A stretch of DNA of 41,778 bases from a virus. The notes under the pieces are model-generated. The model searched no databases and had not been told where the DNA came from. It worked only from the letters and a program-made list of their open reading frames with translations. The stretch lies in the UHGV virus genome UHGV-0176688; one strand, 5' to 3'. Position numbers and translations under genes: made by a program. Positions 11,104 to 16,388 of the stretch are shown in pieces; position 1 is the stretch's first letter, and every line of letters starts with the position of its first letter.

Positions 11104-11781
11104 ATGAATTACATGGCAACGAAAGAGCTTTTTAAGTTCCTTCCCAAATACAAAGCTCACAAAAACGTTAGTGCATCGAAAATCAAAAATGTTGTTATTT
11201 TCGGAGTAACTGATGCCCCACTTTGGGGCTGCATTGAACTCGTTGAACCAAAAGGGGCAACAGTTTGTGTTGACGCAATGTTTTTACAAAAACACCGACC
11301 AAAAACTGGCGGGTATCTGATCGTTTATGAAAACGGTTATCTGTTCTATGCCCCGGAGAAACCATTTGAGGAATGCTATGGCTTGGTTAACGACGCCTCC
11401 GAAAATGGAACCACGGTCATCATTACGGATGACAACGGCGTGATGATTAATATTACCGGGAGCGTAACTATTTCTGCTGGTGGTACCACTACCCAGCAAG
11501 AGGAAATCGACCTTGAAGCAGCCGACTTTTCTGACGCGCTGATGTGGCTGAAGGATGGCAAGAAAGTTGCTCGACGCGGGTGGAACGGCGAAAACCAATT
11601 CTGCTGGCTGGTTCCTGAAGGACAGTACCCGGCACGAATGGAAGCCATTAAGGGATATTTCCCCTGCGACCTCGTTCCGTATGGTGCTTATTTCGCCTTA
11701 AAAAATGCACAAGGTGTAGTTGTTCCGTGGGTGCCTTCTGTAGGCGACCTGCTGGCATGTGACTGGTTTGTAGTGGAGTGA
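11104..11781 (+). CDS. Two-domain protein with C-terminal DUF2829 domain (Tad2-like fold candidate)
   Basis: FSDALMWLKDGKKVARRGWNGENQFCWL...GVVVPWVPSVGDLLACDWFVVE is a strong DUF2829 match by eye. Confidence 0.7.
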   Translation: MNYMATKELFKFLPKYKAHKNVSASKIKNVVIFGVTDAPLWGCIELVEPKGATVCVDAMFLQKHRPKTGGYLIVYENGYLFYAPEKPFEECYGLVNDASENGTTVIITDDNGVMINITGSVTISAGGTTTQQEEIDLEAADFSDALMWLKDGKKVARRGWNGENQFCWLVPEGQYPARMEAIKGYFPCDLVPYGAYFALKNAQGVVVPWVPSVGDLLACDWFVVE

Positions 11782-13093: not shown

Positions 13094-13474
13094 TCAAGTC
13101 TTGGAACCATATAGTTCACGTAGCTTTTCTGCGACTGAAGATACGGCGATTTCACCAGTCGCAGCCCCTACAGTAAGGTCTGCCAGTTCAGGTGAATCAA
13201 ATACCTGCACCCCATTACGGCGTAGAAATAGCAGCGCACTGTTTAGCGCGGTACGCTTATTGGCATCATTGAATATATGCCCTCTCGCAGTAGCCACCAG
13301 GTAGGTTGCGGAGACTTCGAAAAGGTCGGTAATCTCTTCGTACACAACTCTGGCCTGGACTCTCCCGATAATGGCCTCTGCCCTACCCGGATCTGACATG
13401 CCAGGCAGGCCGCCGTAGCGGCTTATATTCGCATCATGAAGCGCAATAAGTTCTTCCGGTGATATATGCCTCAT
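13094..13474 (-). CDS. doc: Doc toxin (Fic/Doc family kinase)
   Basis: Near-identical to P1 Doc as recalled ([39 protein letters not shown]...); overlaps phd stop. Confidence 0.95.
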
Positions 13475-13701
13475 TATCGGTTAACCAGTTCCTTGTTGGT
13501 GGAGTCCAGGGTGTCAAACAGGGATGCAAATTCAGCATCCAGCGCTGCTTTTTTGTAGGCTTCGAAAGTAGCCTTGCTAACAATTACTGCTGGCTCACGG
13601 CCTCTGCGGGTGATTTCAACTTCTTCCCCGGCTTCAACATTGTTGAGCACTTCAGAAAGGTTGCCGCGCGCGGTACGGAAGTTAATGGATTGCATAAACA
13701 C
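13474..13701 (-). CDS. phd: Phd antitoxin
   Basis: [39 protein letters not shown] matches P1 Phd; directly upstream of doc. Confidence 0.9.
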
Positions 13702-14196: not shown

Positions 14197-14422
14197 TACA
14201 TTAAAGGGACACCTTTGGTGCAAACGCGTTACGTACATCAACCACCGCTGATGATTTTGTGCTCTTTGCTACTATTCATCACCAACGGATCAGCGTAACC
14301 AAGCCCAGCATGAAGTAGTTCTGAACCGGATTAGAGAAATGCAAAACGATAATAGAGGCTAAATCGAGGTAGAAAACACATTGTTTAAGGCCACTAATTG
14401 TGGCCTCAAAGGGGAGAGATGC

Positions 14423-14947
14423 TTATTGGCTATGGCTAAAAATCAAATGAGACACTTCATGTGGTTGTAGCTCGTCAAGATCCGGGGCCACAAAACCTTT
14501 TCCGAAAGACTTCACAAGTAATTCGCCAGCCGCATCATTGTCACCTATTACACGAAAGTCATACGGCAGCATCGCAAGTTGACGGCGTAATCCTGCGGAG
14601 AAAGTCGAACCTAACAGCGCCCACGAATTGCCGCCCGCGTTGTGTACAGCTGCGCTCTTAAAAATAGACTCAGTTATCCATATTGGGCCATCTTTTAAAG
14701 GAAGATAGGTTCCCCAAAGTAACTGTCTGCCGTGTGATCGCGTGAAATACCGGGCCATCTTCGGATTGCTATGCTGCTTAGGTGCACCTGGTCTATATGT
14801 CTGATACCCAGCCAACATCCCATCAAACCTGTAGAGAGGGAATGTAACTACTCCTTCGCTTTCATCGATCCACTGTCTATATGGGTGTATATCATGGCGG
14901 TAGTTGCGAGTTAGCAAATGAGCTTCCAGCTTTCCAAATTTTGTCAT
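14423..14947 (-). CDS. Small standalone Toprim-domain protein
   Basis: Conserved Glu in IWITESIF and DxD in RVIGDNDAAGE; likely start ATG 14947 with RBS AGGAAG, overlapping upstream stop (ATGA). Confidence 0.55.
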   Translation of the reverse strand: MTKFGKLEAHLLTRNYRHDIHPYRQWIDESEGVVTFPLYRFDGMLAGYQTYRPGAPKQHSNPKMARYFTRSHGRQLLWGTYLPLKDGPIWITESIFKSAAVHNAGGNSWALLGSTFSAGLRRQLAMLPYDFRVIGDNDAAGELLVKSFGKGFVAPDLDELQPHEVSHLIFSHSQ

Positions 14948-15249
14948 ATTCCGTTCTTCCTGCATACTGGGCATGTGTTCTCTGTGAAATATGGGAAACT
15001 ATTATCCAGCTCATCTACCCACTGTTTATGGTCGAAGCAGAAAAATATCTCCCACGGCATTCCATATTCTTCCATCCATAGGCGGATCTGCATTTCTATT
15101 GGAATCGGCGGTATTGCAGACACCATATCAACAGGATAACAGTTCAGACGACGTTCCAGTTCTTCTACTCTCTTCTGGAGATGAAATATCCGATCCAGAT
15201 GCACACGCCGCTCCCGTGCCATTTTAAAATAAAGCTCGCCGGTCATCAT
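14944..15249 (-). CDS. Coiled-coil/zinc-ribbon-like small protein, paralog A
   Basis: C-terminus PWEIFFCFDHKQWVDELDNSFPYFTENTCPVCRK; tandem paralog of the next gene. Confidence 0.5.
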   Translation of the reverse strand: MMTGELYFKMARERRVHLDRIFHLQKRVEELERRLNCYPVDMVSAIPPIPIEMQIRLWMEEYGMPWEIFFCFDHKQWVDELDNSFPYFTENTCPVCRKNGI

Positions 15250-15533
15250 TAACGCCTACATTCAGGGCAAGAGTTCCCTTCTGCAAAATAGGGGAAACTG
15301 CTATCAAGCTCATCACACCATCCGCGATGGTCGTAGCACCAAAACGCCTCCCACGGCGCACGGAAATACTTCATCCACCAGGACACTCGATCTGGTATAT
15401 CTGCTGGTGGCAGCTCTTCTGGCAATAATTTGCCTGATAATTCCCTTTCCGCCCGTGCCAGCATTCCTTTTAGACTCGCATTTTCTTTTTCAAGAATCTC
15501 TACGCGAGCCTGTAACTCAGCTTTCGTTGGCAT
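15249..15533 (-). CDS. Coiled-coil/zinc-ribbon-like small protein, paralog B
   Basis: C-terminus PWEAFWCYDHRGWCDELDSSFPYFAEGNSCPECRR; start chosen at MPTK (RBS GAGG) to avoid overlap; longer start at 15605 possible. Confidence 0.5.
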   Translation of the reverse strand: MPTKAELQARVEILEKENASLKGMLARAERELSGKLLPEELPPADIPDRVSWWMKYFRAPWEAFWCYDHRGWCDELDSSFPYFAEGNSCPECRR

Positions 15534-16182
15534 GGCCCGCCTCATGTTTATCAGCCACCAGCGGCAATAAAGCCTTAGCCATTTCATGAACCAACATGGC
15601 ATCAATGACGCCTAGCGTATGGCCCGGCTTAATCTTTAATGCGGCCTCAAGATAGCCTCTTTCCAGAGTGGTTTTTACACTTTTCTTGGGCGCTTGTTGG
15701 GAACTATCCGGAAGATCCGAATTCCCAGCCTCATAAGCTATCCTCAGCCAGTGCAACGCCTTACTTTCAAGTTCATCGACTTTCTGCGACGCTATAAGAG
15801 CTGCTTCATACTGTTCACGAGTGACAACCGATGTAAATGCACTGCGATCAAGGTCACTGATATCGCAAATAATGCCATCCAAGGAATAATTCTTTGATGA
15901 TTGGTAATTTTTATGGCGCGCGCCAAAAAGAACCATAGCGCGACTACTACCTGGCATCGTAATGGATAGATGGCAAAAATCTTTTCCATCAGGCCATCCA
16001 CGCCCCTTAGATAATTCCTTCACTAACAAGTCAATCAGTGTCATAGCTTTACCATCCTTGCAAGGCGCTAAAGCTATTTTGGCAAGCTCCAATACTTCAT
16101 CTGCTGTGTATCCAGCACCGTGACCATACATTTCGATACGGGAAATAATATCTGAAATACGCTCTTTAGTGATTCTTGTCAT
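15517..16182 (-). CDS. Hypothetical protein (about 221 aa)
   Basis: ORF with start MTRITKER coupled to upstream stop. Confidence 0.5.
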   Translation of the reverse strand: MTRITKERISDIISRIEMYGHGAGYTADEVLELAKIALAPCKDGKAMTLIDLLVKELSKGRGWPDGKDFCHLSITMPGSSRAMVLFGARHKNYQSSKNYSLDGIICDISDLDRSAFTSVVTREQYEAALIASQKVDELESKALHWLRIAYEAGNSDLPDSSQQAPKKSVKTTLERGYLEAALKIKPGHTLGVIDAMLVHEMAKALLPLVADKHEAGHANES

Positions 16183-16388
16183 AGTTTTATTTCCTTGCAT
16201 GGTTCGCCTTTACGGCAAACAGCTACACGGTCATTTCTTACATTAACCACAGTCACCGTTCCGTCATCGCATTGAATAACGATGAAAGGGTGTTCATTCT
16301 CTTTTGTGCAATGTTGCTGTTCCCCTGCTGTAACAGTGAGGGGAATTAATAAAATAATAATTACTGCGAATTTACTAAATGTTGCCAT
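16179..16388 (-). CDS. Small secreted Cys-containing protein
   Basis: N-terminal signal-like segment MATFSKFAVIIILLIPLTVTA; four Cys in mature part. Confidence 0.5.
   Translation of the reverse strand: MATFSKFAVIIILLIPLTVTAGEQQHCTKENEHPFIVIQCDDGTVTVVNVRNDRVAVCRKGEPCKEIKL

What the first reader, a model, noticed from the sequence alone, without database searches (positions are those of the whole stretch)
14944..15605. Tandem paralogs with coiled-coil N-terminus and W/Cys-rich C-terminal motif
Two adjacent small proteins share PWE(I/A)F(F/W)C(F/Y)DH..W.DELD.SFPYF.E...CP.CR(R/K), a Cys2-His-Cys-like putative zinc-binding module I do not recognise as a named family. Duplication and divergence inside a coupled operon suggests selection, possibly as target mimics or regulators.
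Basis: seen in the sequence. Interest (0 to 1): 0.45.

Follow-up and report, generated by a model that had tools for sequence, protein, structure and literature searches.

The report
Paired phage zinc-finger coiled-coil proteins
Two neighbouring small genes of a P1-like phage-plasmid encode related proteins, each with a dimerising helix and a tiny zinc-binding knob; they belong to a rare, real but uncharacterised phage accessory family, and their function is still unknown.

Summary
On the minus strand, gene B (15249..15533, 94 aa) and gene A (14944..15249, 101 aa) are paralogs (40% identity, E 3e-22). They are translationally coupled by a TAATG overlap. Each has an N-terminal heptad coiled coil and a C-terminal ~50-aa module with invariant C-x2-H-x18/19-C-x2-C. 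Distant relatives replace the His with Cys, which supports metal binding.

The family is tiny: 49 clusters at 50% identity among 1.84 billion representative proteins. It sits in accessory early regions of temperate enterobacterial and Vibrio phages.

The pair is not a recent local duplication. A B-then-A overlapping tandem recurs in at least three diverged lineages. B-only, A-only, chimeric and truncated forms are also common. dN/dS is 0.1-0.2, which indicates purifying selection.

I tested and rejected three ideas: a split primase with the downstream Toprim gene, the database label "antitoxin PHD", and homology to lambda Ea8.5.

My best inference is that these are dimeric, acidic, zinc-stabilised protein-binding modulators. 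The function is untested. Interest is modest.

The parts
15249..15533 (-). Gene B (94 aa, MPTKAELQ...CPECRR). This is the B-type member of PHROG 3797. An alternative upstream ATG lies at 15545.
   Evidence: ORF. PHROG 3797, E 4.4e-57. PGAP CDS WP_052930499 in a 99.6% identical plasmid. Homologue N-termini. dN/dS 0.21.
15435..15524 (-). B residues 4-33: a four-heptad leucine-zipper-like helix. The a/d positions are V11, L14, N/I18, L21, L25, A28 and L32.
   Evidence: AF2 helix 4-33. Heptad conservation in 19 B-type sequences. Sub-threshold bZIP and coiled-coil Pfam hits.
15252..15401 (-). B residues 45-94: the acidic, aromatic-rich Cys-His-Cys-Cys module. Ligand codons: C66 at 15336-15338, H69 at 15327-15329, C89 at 15267-15269, C92 at 15258-15260.
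   Evidence: Invariant columns. AF2 model of the module alone, pLDDT 93.6, with helix, helix, beta-hairpin carrying CxxH, then CxxC at the start of a helix. Charge -3.1, 24% aromatic.
14944..15249 (-). Gene A (101 aa), the A-type paralog. Its start overlaps B's stop (TAATG) and its stop overlaps the Toprim gene's start (ATGA).
   Evidence: ORF. PHROG 3797, E 1.6e-36. PGAP CDS WP_000988220. A-type relatives 55-72% identical. dN/dS 0.10.
15136..15237 (-). A residues 5-38: an invariant basic motif (L/I)YFxMxRER, followed by a 2.5-heptad zipper (I21, L24, V28, L31, L35, Y38).
   Evidence: Alignment A4. Heptad table. The N-terminal half has pI 9.1.
14956..15105 (-). A residues 49-98: the Cys-His-Cys-Cys module. 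Ligand codons: C71 at 15037-15039, H74 at 15028-15030, C93 at 14971-14973, C96 at 14962-14964.
   Evidence: Motif positions. 52% identity to B's module.
14423..14947 (-). Downstream stand-alone Toprim gene (174 aa), the last gene of the operon. It is a neighbour only and not a demonstrated partner.
   Evidence: phrog_849 'DNA primase', profile positions 143-333 of 435. 43% identical to a T5 172-aa protein. Found without A or B elsewhere.
14384..14410 (-). Terminator-like hairpin (11 pairs plus a T-rich tail), 13 nt after the Toprim stop. It is the likely end of the long minus-strand accessory operon.
   Evidence: Consensus scan only.
15517..16200 (-). Upstream gene (227 aa, similar to the C-terminal part of pmgU). 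Its end overlaps B's start by 17 nt.
   Evidence: PHROG mosaics of unknown function. The D6 annotation at the equivalent position reads 'similar to P1 gene pmgU'.

Best explanation
A and B are two old paralogs of a small phage accessory protein family (PHROG 3797).

What is shown or strongly supported:
- Each protein has an N-terminal heptad-repeat helix and a C-terminal ~50-residue module with four invariant metal ligands, C-x2-H-x18/19-C-x2-C.
- Both are real genes under purifying selection.
- They are co-translated as the penultimate genes of a long accessory operon of a P1/D6-like phage-plasmid.
- The B-then-A pair is an inherited arrangement found in several diverged lineages.

What is inferred:
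- The helix forms a parallel dimeric coiled coil. B carries the Asn/Ile 'a' position typical of dimeric zippers.
- One zinc ion holds the C-terminal module in a treble-clef-like shape.
- The resulting bivalent, acidic, aromatic-rich particle binds a protein target rather than nucleic acid.
- It acts as a non-essential modulator or inhibitor of a host factor or a competing-element factor, in DNA transactions, defence or cell physiology. This would resemble other small genes of the lambdoid exo-xis and nin regions.
- A and B probably have different partners or act as homodimers in parallel. Their zippers differ and each occurs alone. A heterocomplex is not excluded.
For: - Paralogy.
- Family assignment and absence from curated families.
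- Invariant ligands, and His-to-Cys swaps in distant members such as P0064, P0075, P0093, P0094 and the P22-like SE1 protein.
- Confident models showing a long helix followed by a CxxH beta-hairpin knuckle, with CxxC at a helix N-terminus.
- Heptad conservation.
- Acidic charge (median module charge -4) and 19-24% aromatic residues.
- Purifying selection, stronger on the module.
- Conserved B-then-A overlapping tandem in E. coli/Salmonella P1-like plasmids, in a Citrobacter-type lineage of ~85-kb contigs, and in a third contig.
- Location always in accessory early regions. In integrating prophages it lies two to three genes before DUF4224/xis-int. In lambdoid phages it lies in the nin region, upstream of ninG.
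- Dispensability: frequent truncated, frameshifted, fused and chimeric alleles.
Against: - No partner, phenotype or expression data exist.
- No structural analogue was found, so the fold class rests only on the DSSP string of AF2 models that contain no metal.
- Oligomeric state was not modelled.
- A-type proteins carry an invariant basic motif (YFxMxRER) just before the zipper. This could instead indicate nucleic-acid binding.
- Gene neighbours are mostly of unknown function, so context gives no specific pathway.
Confidence: 0.4

Rival explanations
1. Split primase. The CHC2 module of A would be a detached DnaG-type zinc-binding domain that works in trans with the Toprim-only protein encoded immediately downstream and coupled to it by an ATGA overlap.
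For: - The ligand pattern C-x2-H-x19-C-x2-C resembles the DnaG CHC2 finger, C-x2-H-x17-C-x2-C (established knowledge of PF01807).
- The Toprim protein matches only the central part of a phage primase profile and lacks an N-terminal zinc domain.
- A's stop overlaps the Toprim gene's start.
- A and the Toprim gene travel together in the E. coli plasmids.
Against: - No Pfam zf-CHC2 hit even at E <= 1.
- The predicted second ligand pair sits on a helix, not on a second hairpin as in a zinc ribbon.
- Fold searches did not return any primase zinc domain.
- A-type relatives in other elements have no Toprim neighbour.
- The same Toprim gene occurs without A upstream.
- Its ~172-aa family stands alone in T5, Kagunavirus and jumbo phages.
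- The Citrobacter-type B-A pairs are followed by unrelated genes.
Confidence: 0.05
2. Nucleic-acid-binding regulators. The proteins would be bZIP-like dimers (basic motif plus zipper in A) that bind phage or host DNA or RNA and tune early gene expression or the lysis-lysogeny decision.
For: - Invariant basic YFKMARERR motif directly N-terminal to A's zipper; the N-terminal half has pI 9.1.
- Weak bZIP_1 similarity in B (E 0.025) and a weak phrog_4580 'transcription factor' hit (E 0.011).
- In 12 of about 23 diverged prophage loci the next gene is a phrog_536 'transcriptional regulator'.
- Genes of the lambda exo-xis region influence lysogenisation and induction (PMC3824215, PMC8614690).
Against: - B has no basic region. 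Its zipper starts at residue 7.
- Both proteins are acidic overall (pI 5.0 and 5.6), and the conserved module is the most acidic part.
- The bZIP hits are far below Pfam thresholds and cover only the zipper.
Confidence: 0.2
3. An obligate A-B hetero-complex. The conserved gene order and coupling would exist because the two paralogs assemble 1:1 into one functional particle.
For: - The B-then-A order, with overlapping stop and start, is kept in three diverged lineages. B and A have diverged to similar degrees, 57-61% and 55-72% identity to the window copies.
Against: - B alone is the commonest state: 33 of 59 distinct arrangements in the fetched loci, and about 118 of 142 E. coli genomes that carry the family.
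- A alone also occurs.
- The zippers differ in length and register.
Confidence: 0.2
4. Phd-type antitoxin, as named in several NCBI and UniRef records ('antitoxin PHD').
For: - The name is attached to B-type clusters P0001, P0007, P0015 and P0023.
- The gene lies about 1.5 kb from the genuine phd-doc pair.
Against: - No PhdYeFM Pfam hit.
- No similarity to the window's own Phd (E 0.36).
- No toxin gene follows B.
- The genuine Phd/Doc pair is separately present at 13094..13701.
Confidence: 0.01

Closest known systems
PHROG 3797 (phage protein orthologous group, unknown function)
   Same: Both A and B match the profile end to end (E 1.6e-36 and 4.4e-57). This is the family they belong to.
   Different: The PHROG carries no function, fold or metal annotation. 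The A/B subtypes, the conserved gene pair and the CHC2 site are not described there.
Lambda Ea8.5 and its prophage homologues (PDB 2M7A, 2M7B; described as a hybrid homeodomain/zinc-finger fold, from my own knowledge of the literature)
   Same: - Similar size (93 aa).
- A CxxH ... CxxC ligand set, with the CxxC at the extreme C-terminus.
- A similar genomic niche, just upstream of xis-int in the exo-xis accessory region.
- Non-essential, with poorly understood effects on the lysis-lysogeny decision (PMC3824215, PMC8614690).
   Different: - No detectable homology: hhalign probability 3-4%.
- Ea8.5 has about 53 residues between its ligand pairs, against 18-19 here.
- Ea8.5 has no N-terminal coiled coil.
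DnaG-type CHC2 zinc finger (Pfam PF01807)
   Same: The ligand chemistry and spacing are nearly the same (C-x2-H-x17-C-x2-C against C-x2-H-x18/19-C-x2-C), and here the gene lies next to a Toprim gene.
   Different: - No profile match.
- The predicted topology is not a two-hairpin zinc ribbon.
- There is no consistent linkage to a primase catalytic domain.
Treble-clef zinc fingers (structural fold group)
   Same: The first ligand pair sits on a beta-hairpin knuckle. The second pair sits at the N-terminus of a helix (DSSP of the AF2 model).
   Different: The C-terminal helix is a single turn, because B ends two residues after the last Cys. No solved treble-clef structure was retrieved. The assignment is by topology only.

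Membership tests
PHROG 3797 | Significant full-length match to the family HMM | tested here: met
   A: E 1.6e-36, profile positions 1-94 of 94. B: E 4.4e-57, profile positions 1-93 of 94.
Phd/YefM antitoxin ('antitoxin PHD' label) | Match to PF02604, or similarity to a bona fide Phd | tested here: not met
   No Pfam hit at E <= 1. BLASTP against the window's own Phd gives E 0.36.
Phd/YefM antitoxin ('antitoxin PHD' label) | Cognate toxin gene immediately downstream | tested here: not met
   B is followed by A, by humD, or by other genes. The real phd-doc pair is elsewhere, at 13094..13701.
DnaG-type CHC2 zinc finger (PF01807) | C-x2-H-x~17-C-x2-C ligand pattern | tested here: met
   The pattern here is C-x2-H-x19-C-x2-C in B and x18 in A. 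The reference spacing is from established knowledge.
DnaG-type CHC2 zinc finger (PF01807) | Profile match to zf-CHC2 | tested here: not met
   No hit at E <= 1.
DnaG-type CHC2 zinc finger (PF01807) | Zinc-ribbon topology, and linkage in cis or in trans to a primase catalytic domain | tested here: not met
Lambda Ea8.5 family | Sequence or profile homology to Ea8.5, 2M7A or 2M7B | tested here: not met
   hhalign probability 3.0-3.9%, aligning only the terminal CPxC.
Lambda Ea8.5 family | Hybrid homeodomain/zinc-finger fold | tested here: not met
bZIP | Pfam bZIP_1/bZIP_2 match above the gathering score, with a basic region before the zipper | tested here: not met
   B scores 15.1 bits against a cut-off of 27.6, over the zipper only, and has no basic region. 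A has a short basic motif but no Pfam hit.
Treble-clef zinc finger (fold group) | Zinc knuckle on a beta-hairpin, plus ligands from the first turn of a helix | tested here: inconclusive
   The DSSP string of a pLDDT 93.6 model fits. Coordinates could not be inspected, the model holds no metal, and no PDB analogue was retrieved.
Zinc-binding protein (general) | Stoichiometric zinc bound by the four conserved residues | not testable with these tools
   Support is indirect only: invariance of the ligands and His/Cys interchange at ligand 2.

The most novel reading that the evidence does not exclude
B and A could be the two subunits of a previously unrecognised, inherited two-gene module of temperate phages. 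In this reading a coiled-coil-assembled particle displays several acidic zinc knobs of a fold with no solved analogue. The particle would neutralise a specific host defence factor or a DNA repair/replication factor, making it a new anti-defence or host-takeover family.
Probability: 0.15. Interest if true: 0.65.

Novelty: new variant of a known kind. Interest (0 to 1): 0.3.

Why it matters
P1/D6-like phage-plasmids are common in clinical E. coli, Shigella and Salmonella. Their long accessory operons are largely unannotated. This work gives one of those gene families a defined architecture: a zipper plus a CHC2 zinc module. It also separates two subtypes, shows that the gene pair is conserved, and corrects a misleading database name ('antitoxin PHD').

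If the proteins prove to inhibit a host system, they would add a small, easily expressed zinc-protein scaffold to the known phage counter-defence or host-takeover factors. If not, they remain ordinary dispensable accessory genes.

Tried and rejected
1. Split primase (A's zinc module plus the downstream Toprim protein). Rejected on co-occurrence and topology.
2. 'Antitoxin PHD'. Rejected.
3. Homology to lambda Ea8.5, prompted by the shared CxxH...CxxC ligands and the exo-xis position. hhalign probability was 3-4%, and there was no fold match.
4. Recent in-situ duplication. Rejected because A groups with A-types from other elements (55-72% identity) and not with its neighbour B (38-40%), and because the B-A order recurs in diverged lineages.
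5. Diversifying selection. Pairwise dN/dS is 0.1-0.2. No site-level test was run.
6. Fold searches:
   - Foldseek against the PDB returned nothing below E 6.7.
7. PDB sequence searches with both profiles found only coiled-coil noise or nothing.
8. Guilt by association. Neighbours are mostly families of unknown function.
9. Literature. No paper holds the accessions, the PHROG id or the peptide motifs.
10. The genome-contig scan returned a single locus, from Citrobacter sp. NCU1, so it added little on taxonomy.
11. The first related-loci run, using the domain alignment, failed because no block was conserved enough.
Full report
**Setting.** The window is part of a P1/D6/RCS47-like phage-plasmid of E. 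coli or Salmonella. Megablast of 12000-20000 hits 1,526 plasmid records, almost all from Escherichia, Salmonella or Shigella and mostly about 90-100 kb. It also hits the P1-like phages RCS47, D6, P1 and P7. The finding lies near the end of a run of about 23 tightly packed minus-strand ORFs, from about 26.8 kb down to 14.4 kb. After that run come humD, phd and doc.

**The observation.**
- Gene A is 14944..15249 (101 aa).
- Gene B is best taken as 15249..15533 (94 aa, MPTKAELQ...).
- The ATG at 15533 has a GAGG 6 nt upstream. Homologues begin there, and PGAP calls a 285-nt gene in a 99.6% identical Salmonella plasmid.
- A and B are 40% identical, E 3e-22. Their C-terminal modules are 52% identical.
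- The couplings can be read directly from the sequence. B's stop and A's start form TAATG. A's stop and the next gene's start form ATGA. B's start overlaps the upstream gene by 17 nt.
- A terminator-like hairpin follows the third gene (this is a consensus match only).

**Architecture.**
- An AF2 model of B built on a 29-sequence alignment has mean pLDDT 91.5, with a helix over residues 4-33 followed by a compact C-terminal part.
- The module alone, modelled with 45 diverse sequences, reaches pLDDT 93.6. Its DSSP string shows a helix, a short helix, then a beta-hairpin with C-x2-H in the turn. A long loop follows. The C-x2-C sits at the start of a one-turn C-terminal helix.
- This is the arrangement that defines treble-clef fingers, not zinc ribbons. 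I could not inspect coordinates, and the model contains no metal, so I treat the fold class as provisional.
- In clean homologues C66, H69, C89 and C92 (B numbering) are invariant.
- In distant members the His is replaced by Cys: P0064, P0075, P0093, P0094 and the P22-like SE1 protein. That pattern is expected for a metal ligand and not for a purely structural residue.
- B-type N-termini keep a canonical a/d pattern over four heptads (V11, L14, N/I18, L21, L25, A28, L32). The Asn/Ile at an 'a' position is typical of dimeric zippers.
- A-types have an invariant (L/I)YFxMxRER motif followed by 2.5 heptads.
- Both proteins are acidic (pI 5.0 and 5.6). The module is the most acidic and aromatic part, with a family median charge of about -4.

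**What family it is.**
- Both proteins match PHROG 3797, unknown function, end to end.
- Nothing matches in Pfam (only sub-threshold coiled-coil noise), NCBIfam or PADLOC.
- Profile searches of PDB sequences find only coiled coils, or nothing.
- A full HMMER scan of 1.84 billion cluster representatives finds only 49 proteins with E <= 0.001, nearly all 90-115 aa. The family is therefore real but very small.
- Source names place members in Escherichia, Salmonella, Pantoea, Erwinia, Citrobacter, and in Klebsiella and Vibrio phages.
- No paper in the searchable library mentions the accessions, the PHROG id or the motifs.

**The pair.** The tandem is not a recent local duplication. A is 55-72% identical to A-type proteins from other elements but only 38-40% identical to its neighbour B. 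The same order, B then A with overlapping stop and start, recurs in three settings:
- the E. coli/Salmonella plasmids;
- a lineage of ~85-kb contigs that includes Citrobacter sp. NCU1, where humD precedes the pair;
- a third, short viral contig.

In these lineages B and A have diverged to similar degrees, as expected if the pair is inherited together. Neither paralog needs the other, however.
- B alone is the commonest state. In one search, 277 plasmid records match any part of a query that also spans the flanking gene ends; only 13 span the tandem, and most of the listed partial matches cover B alone.
- 24 of 142 positive complete E. coli genomes have the tandem.
- 33 of 59 distinct arrangements in the fetched loci are B-only.
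- A-type alone occurs in Klebsiella phage LASTA, in an integrase-bearing prophage seen on 92 contigs, and in a metagenomic P1-like contig.
- Recombinants between the two paralogs exist: B N-terminus with A C-terminus (P0004, P0005) and a zipper-level fusion (P0032).

**Selection and dispensability.**
- Pairwise Nei-Gojobori dN/dS is about 0.21 for B (212 pairs) and about 0.10 for A (12 pairs). It is lower in the module than in the zipper.
- This confirms that both frames are coding. It argues against gene-wide diversifying selection.
- Disrupted alleles are nevertheless frequent. One truncation loses the CxxC and is seen on 80 contigs (P0007). There are frameshifts after PWE, an A::HumD fusion that deletes the Toprim gene (P0046), and a split gene in phage D6.
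- These are dispensable accessory genes in a recombination-prone spot.

**Context elsewhere.**
- In integrating prophages the gene sits at the distal end of an early operon. Typically it is followed by a phrog_536 'transcriptional regulator', a DUF4224 protein and the integrase at the prophage end.
- A third subtype lies in the nin region of lambdoid phages. In Salmonella phage SE1 it sits between ninF and ninG. In seven more viral contigs it is 0.7-3.5 kb upstream of a ninG homologue.
- These are the classic accessory early regions. Lambda's exo-xis genes, including the zinc protein Ea8.5, modulate lysogenisation and induction without being essential (PMC3824215, PMC8614690).

**Hypotheses tested.**
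1. Split primase. The CHC2 spacing resembles the DnaG zinc finger, and the coupled downstream gene is a Toprim-only protein that matches the middle of a primase profile.
   - There is no zf-CHC2 match, and the predicted topology differs.
   - A-types elsewhere lack Toprim neighbours, and the Toprim gene occurs without A.
   - The ~172-aa Toprim family stands alone in T5, Kagunavirus and jumbo phages.
   - Rejected.
2. 'Antitoxin PHD', a label on several NCBI and UniRef entries. There is no Pfam match and no similarity to the window's own Phd. Rejected as annotation drift.
3. Relation to Ea8.5. It has the same ligand set and a similar niche. hhalign probability is only 3-4% and there is no fold match. 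It is not a member and is at most a functional analogue.

**Mechanism.**
- Shown: paralogy, coupling, invariant ligands, conserved heptads, purifying selection, a conserved gene pair and accessory status.
- Inferred: one zinc per module, parallel dimerisation through the zipper, and protein binding by the acidic, aromatic-rich module. From this I infer a role as a small modulator or inhibitor of a host factor or a rival-element factor. I put about 0.4 on this.
- Main rivals: nucleic-acid-binding regulators (0.2, mostly because of A's basic motif) and an obligate A-B complex (0.2, which overlaps with the main model).
- No tool here could model oligomers, show metal binding or find partners.

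**Verdict.** It is an uncharacterised but already catalogued phage family with a compact CHC2 zinc module that has no detectable solved analogue. The B-A pair is an inherited module, not a fresh duplication. Nothing points to an unusual mechanism, so interest is modest (0.3). The novelty class is a new variant of a known kind: small zinc-binding accessory proteins of temperate phages.

Noticed in passing
L001 (RCS47, NC_042128) locus 5001-5291, minus strand (record 96650-96940): RCS47 encodes an intact B homologue (88.7% identical). It is not annotated. A plus-strand 'hypothetical protein' (gp049) is annotated beside it, overlapping its 3' end by about 10 nt.
   Followed up: partly
window 14423..14947 (-): This is a stand-alone ~174-aa Toprim protein, 43% identical to a 172-aa T5 protein annotated 'DNA primase' and to Kagunavirus gp37. 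The family has no zinc domain and is widespread in virulent and jumbo phages. Its function as a primase looks unproven.
   Followed up: partly
Phage P1 record MH422554, 86199-86396 (hits H7, H130): P1 itself keeps only an unannotated remnant of the last third of this Toprim gene (88% amino-acid identity over residues 109-174). This indicates a deletion in the P1 lineage.
   Followed up: no
Proteins P0001, P0007, P0015, P0023 (B-type clusters): NCBI and UniRef name these proteins 'antitoxin PHD', although they show no similarity to Phd/YefM. The name is probably propagated annotation drift from the nearby phd-doc locus.
   Followed up: yes
Proteins P0007, P0014, P0030, P0031, P0039, P0041, P0046, P0056, P0044; D6 orf105 (L122 2513-2665): There are many truncated, frameshifted or fused alleles of A and B. 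One truncation that loses the CxxC is seen on 80 contigs. An A::HumD fusion deletes the Toprim gene. There are also pmgU-like::B fusions. The site downstream of B is a rearrangement hotspot, variously carrying hot, the Toprim gene, a reverse-strand ORF, or nothing.
   Followed up: partly
Proteins P0004, P0005, P0032: These are chimeric genes: B's zipper joined to A's zinc module, or B(1-27) joined to A(13-101). They are consistent with unequal recombination between the tandem paralogs.
   Followed up: partly
window 14384..14410 (-): An 11-pair hairpin with a T-rich tail lies 13 nt after the Toprim stop. It probably terminates the ~12-kb accessory operon before humD.
   Followed up: no
window 11104..11781 (+): In a 99.6% identical plasmid the corresponding gene is annotated as a DUF2829 domain protein. 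Separately, a Tad2-like gene lies near an A-type member in L009. A 2025 preprint (10.1101/2025.09.12.675607) reports Tad2 anti-Thoeris genes in most D6/P1 phage-plasmids. I suspect the window's DUF2829 gene is that Tad2 gene, but I did not test this.
   Followed up: no
L070-L089, the gene immediately downstream of the family member (for example L070 5221-5631): In 12 of about 23 diverged prophage loci the next gene is a ~115-aa phrog_536 'transcriptional regulator' with a C-terminal Cys cluster. It is followed by a DUF4224 protein and the integrase. This recurrent neighbour was not analysed further.
   Followed up: partly
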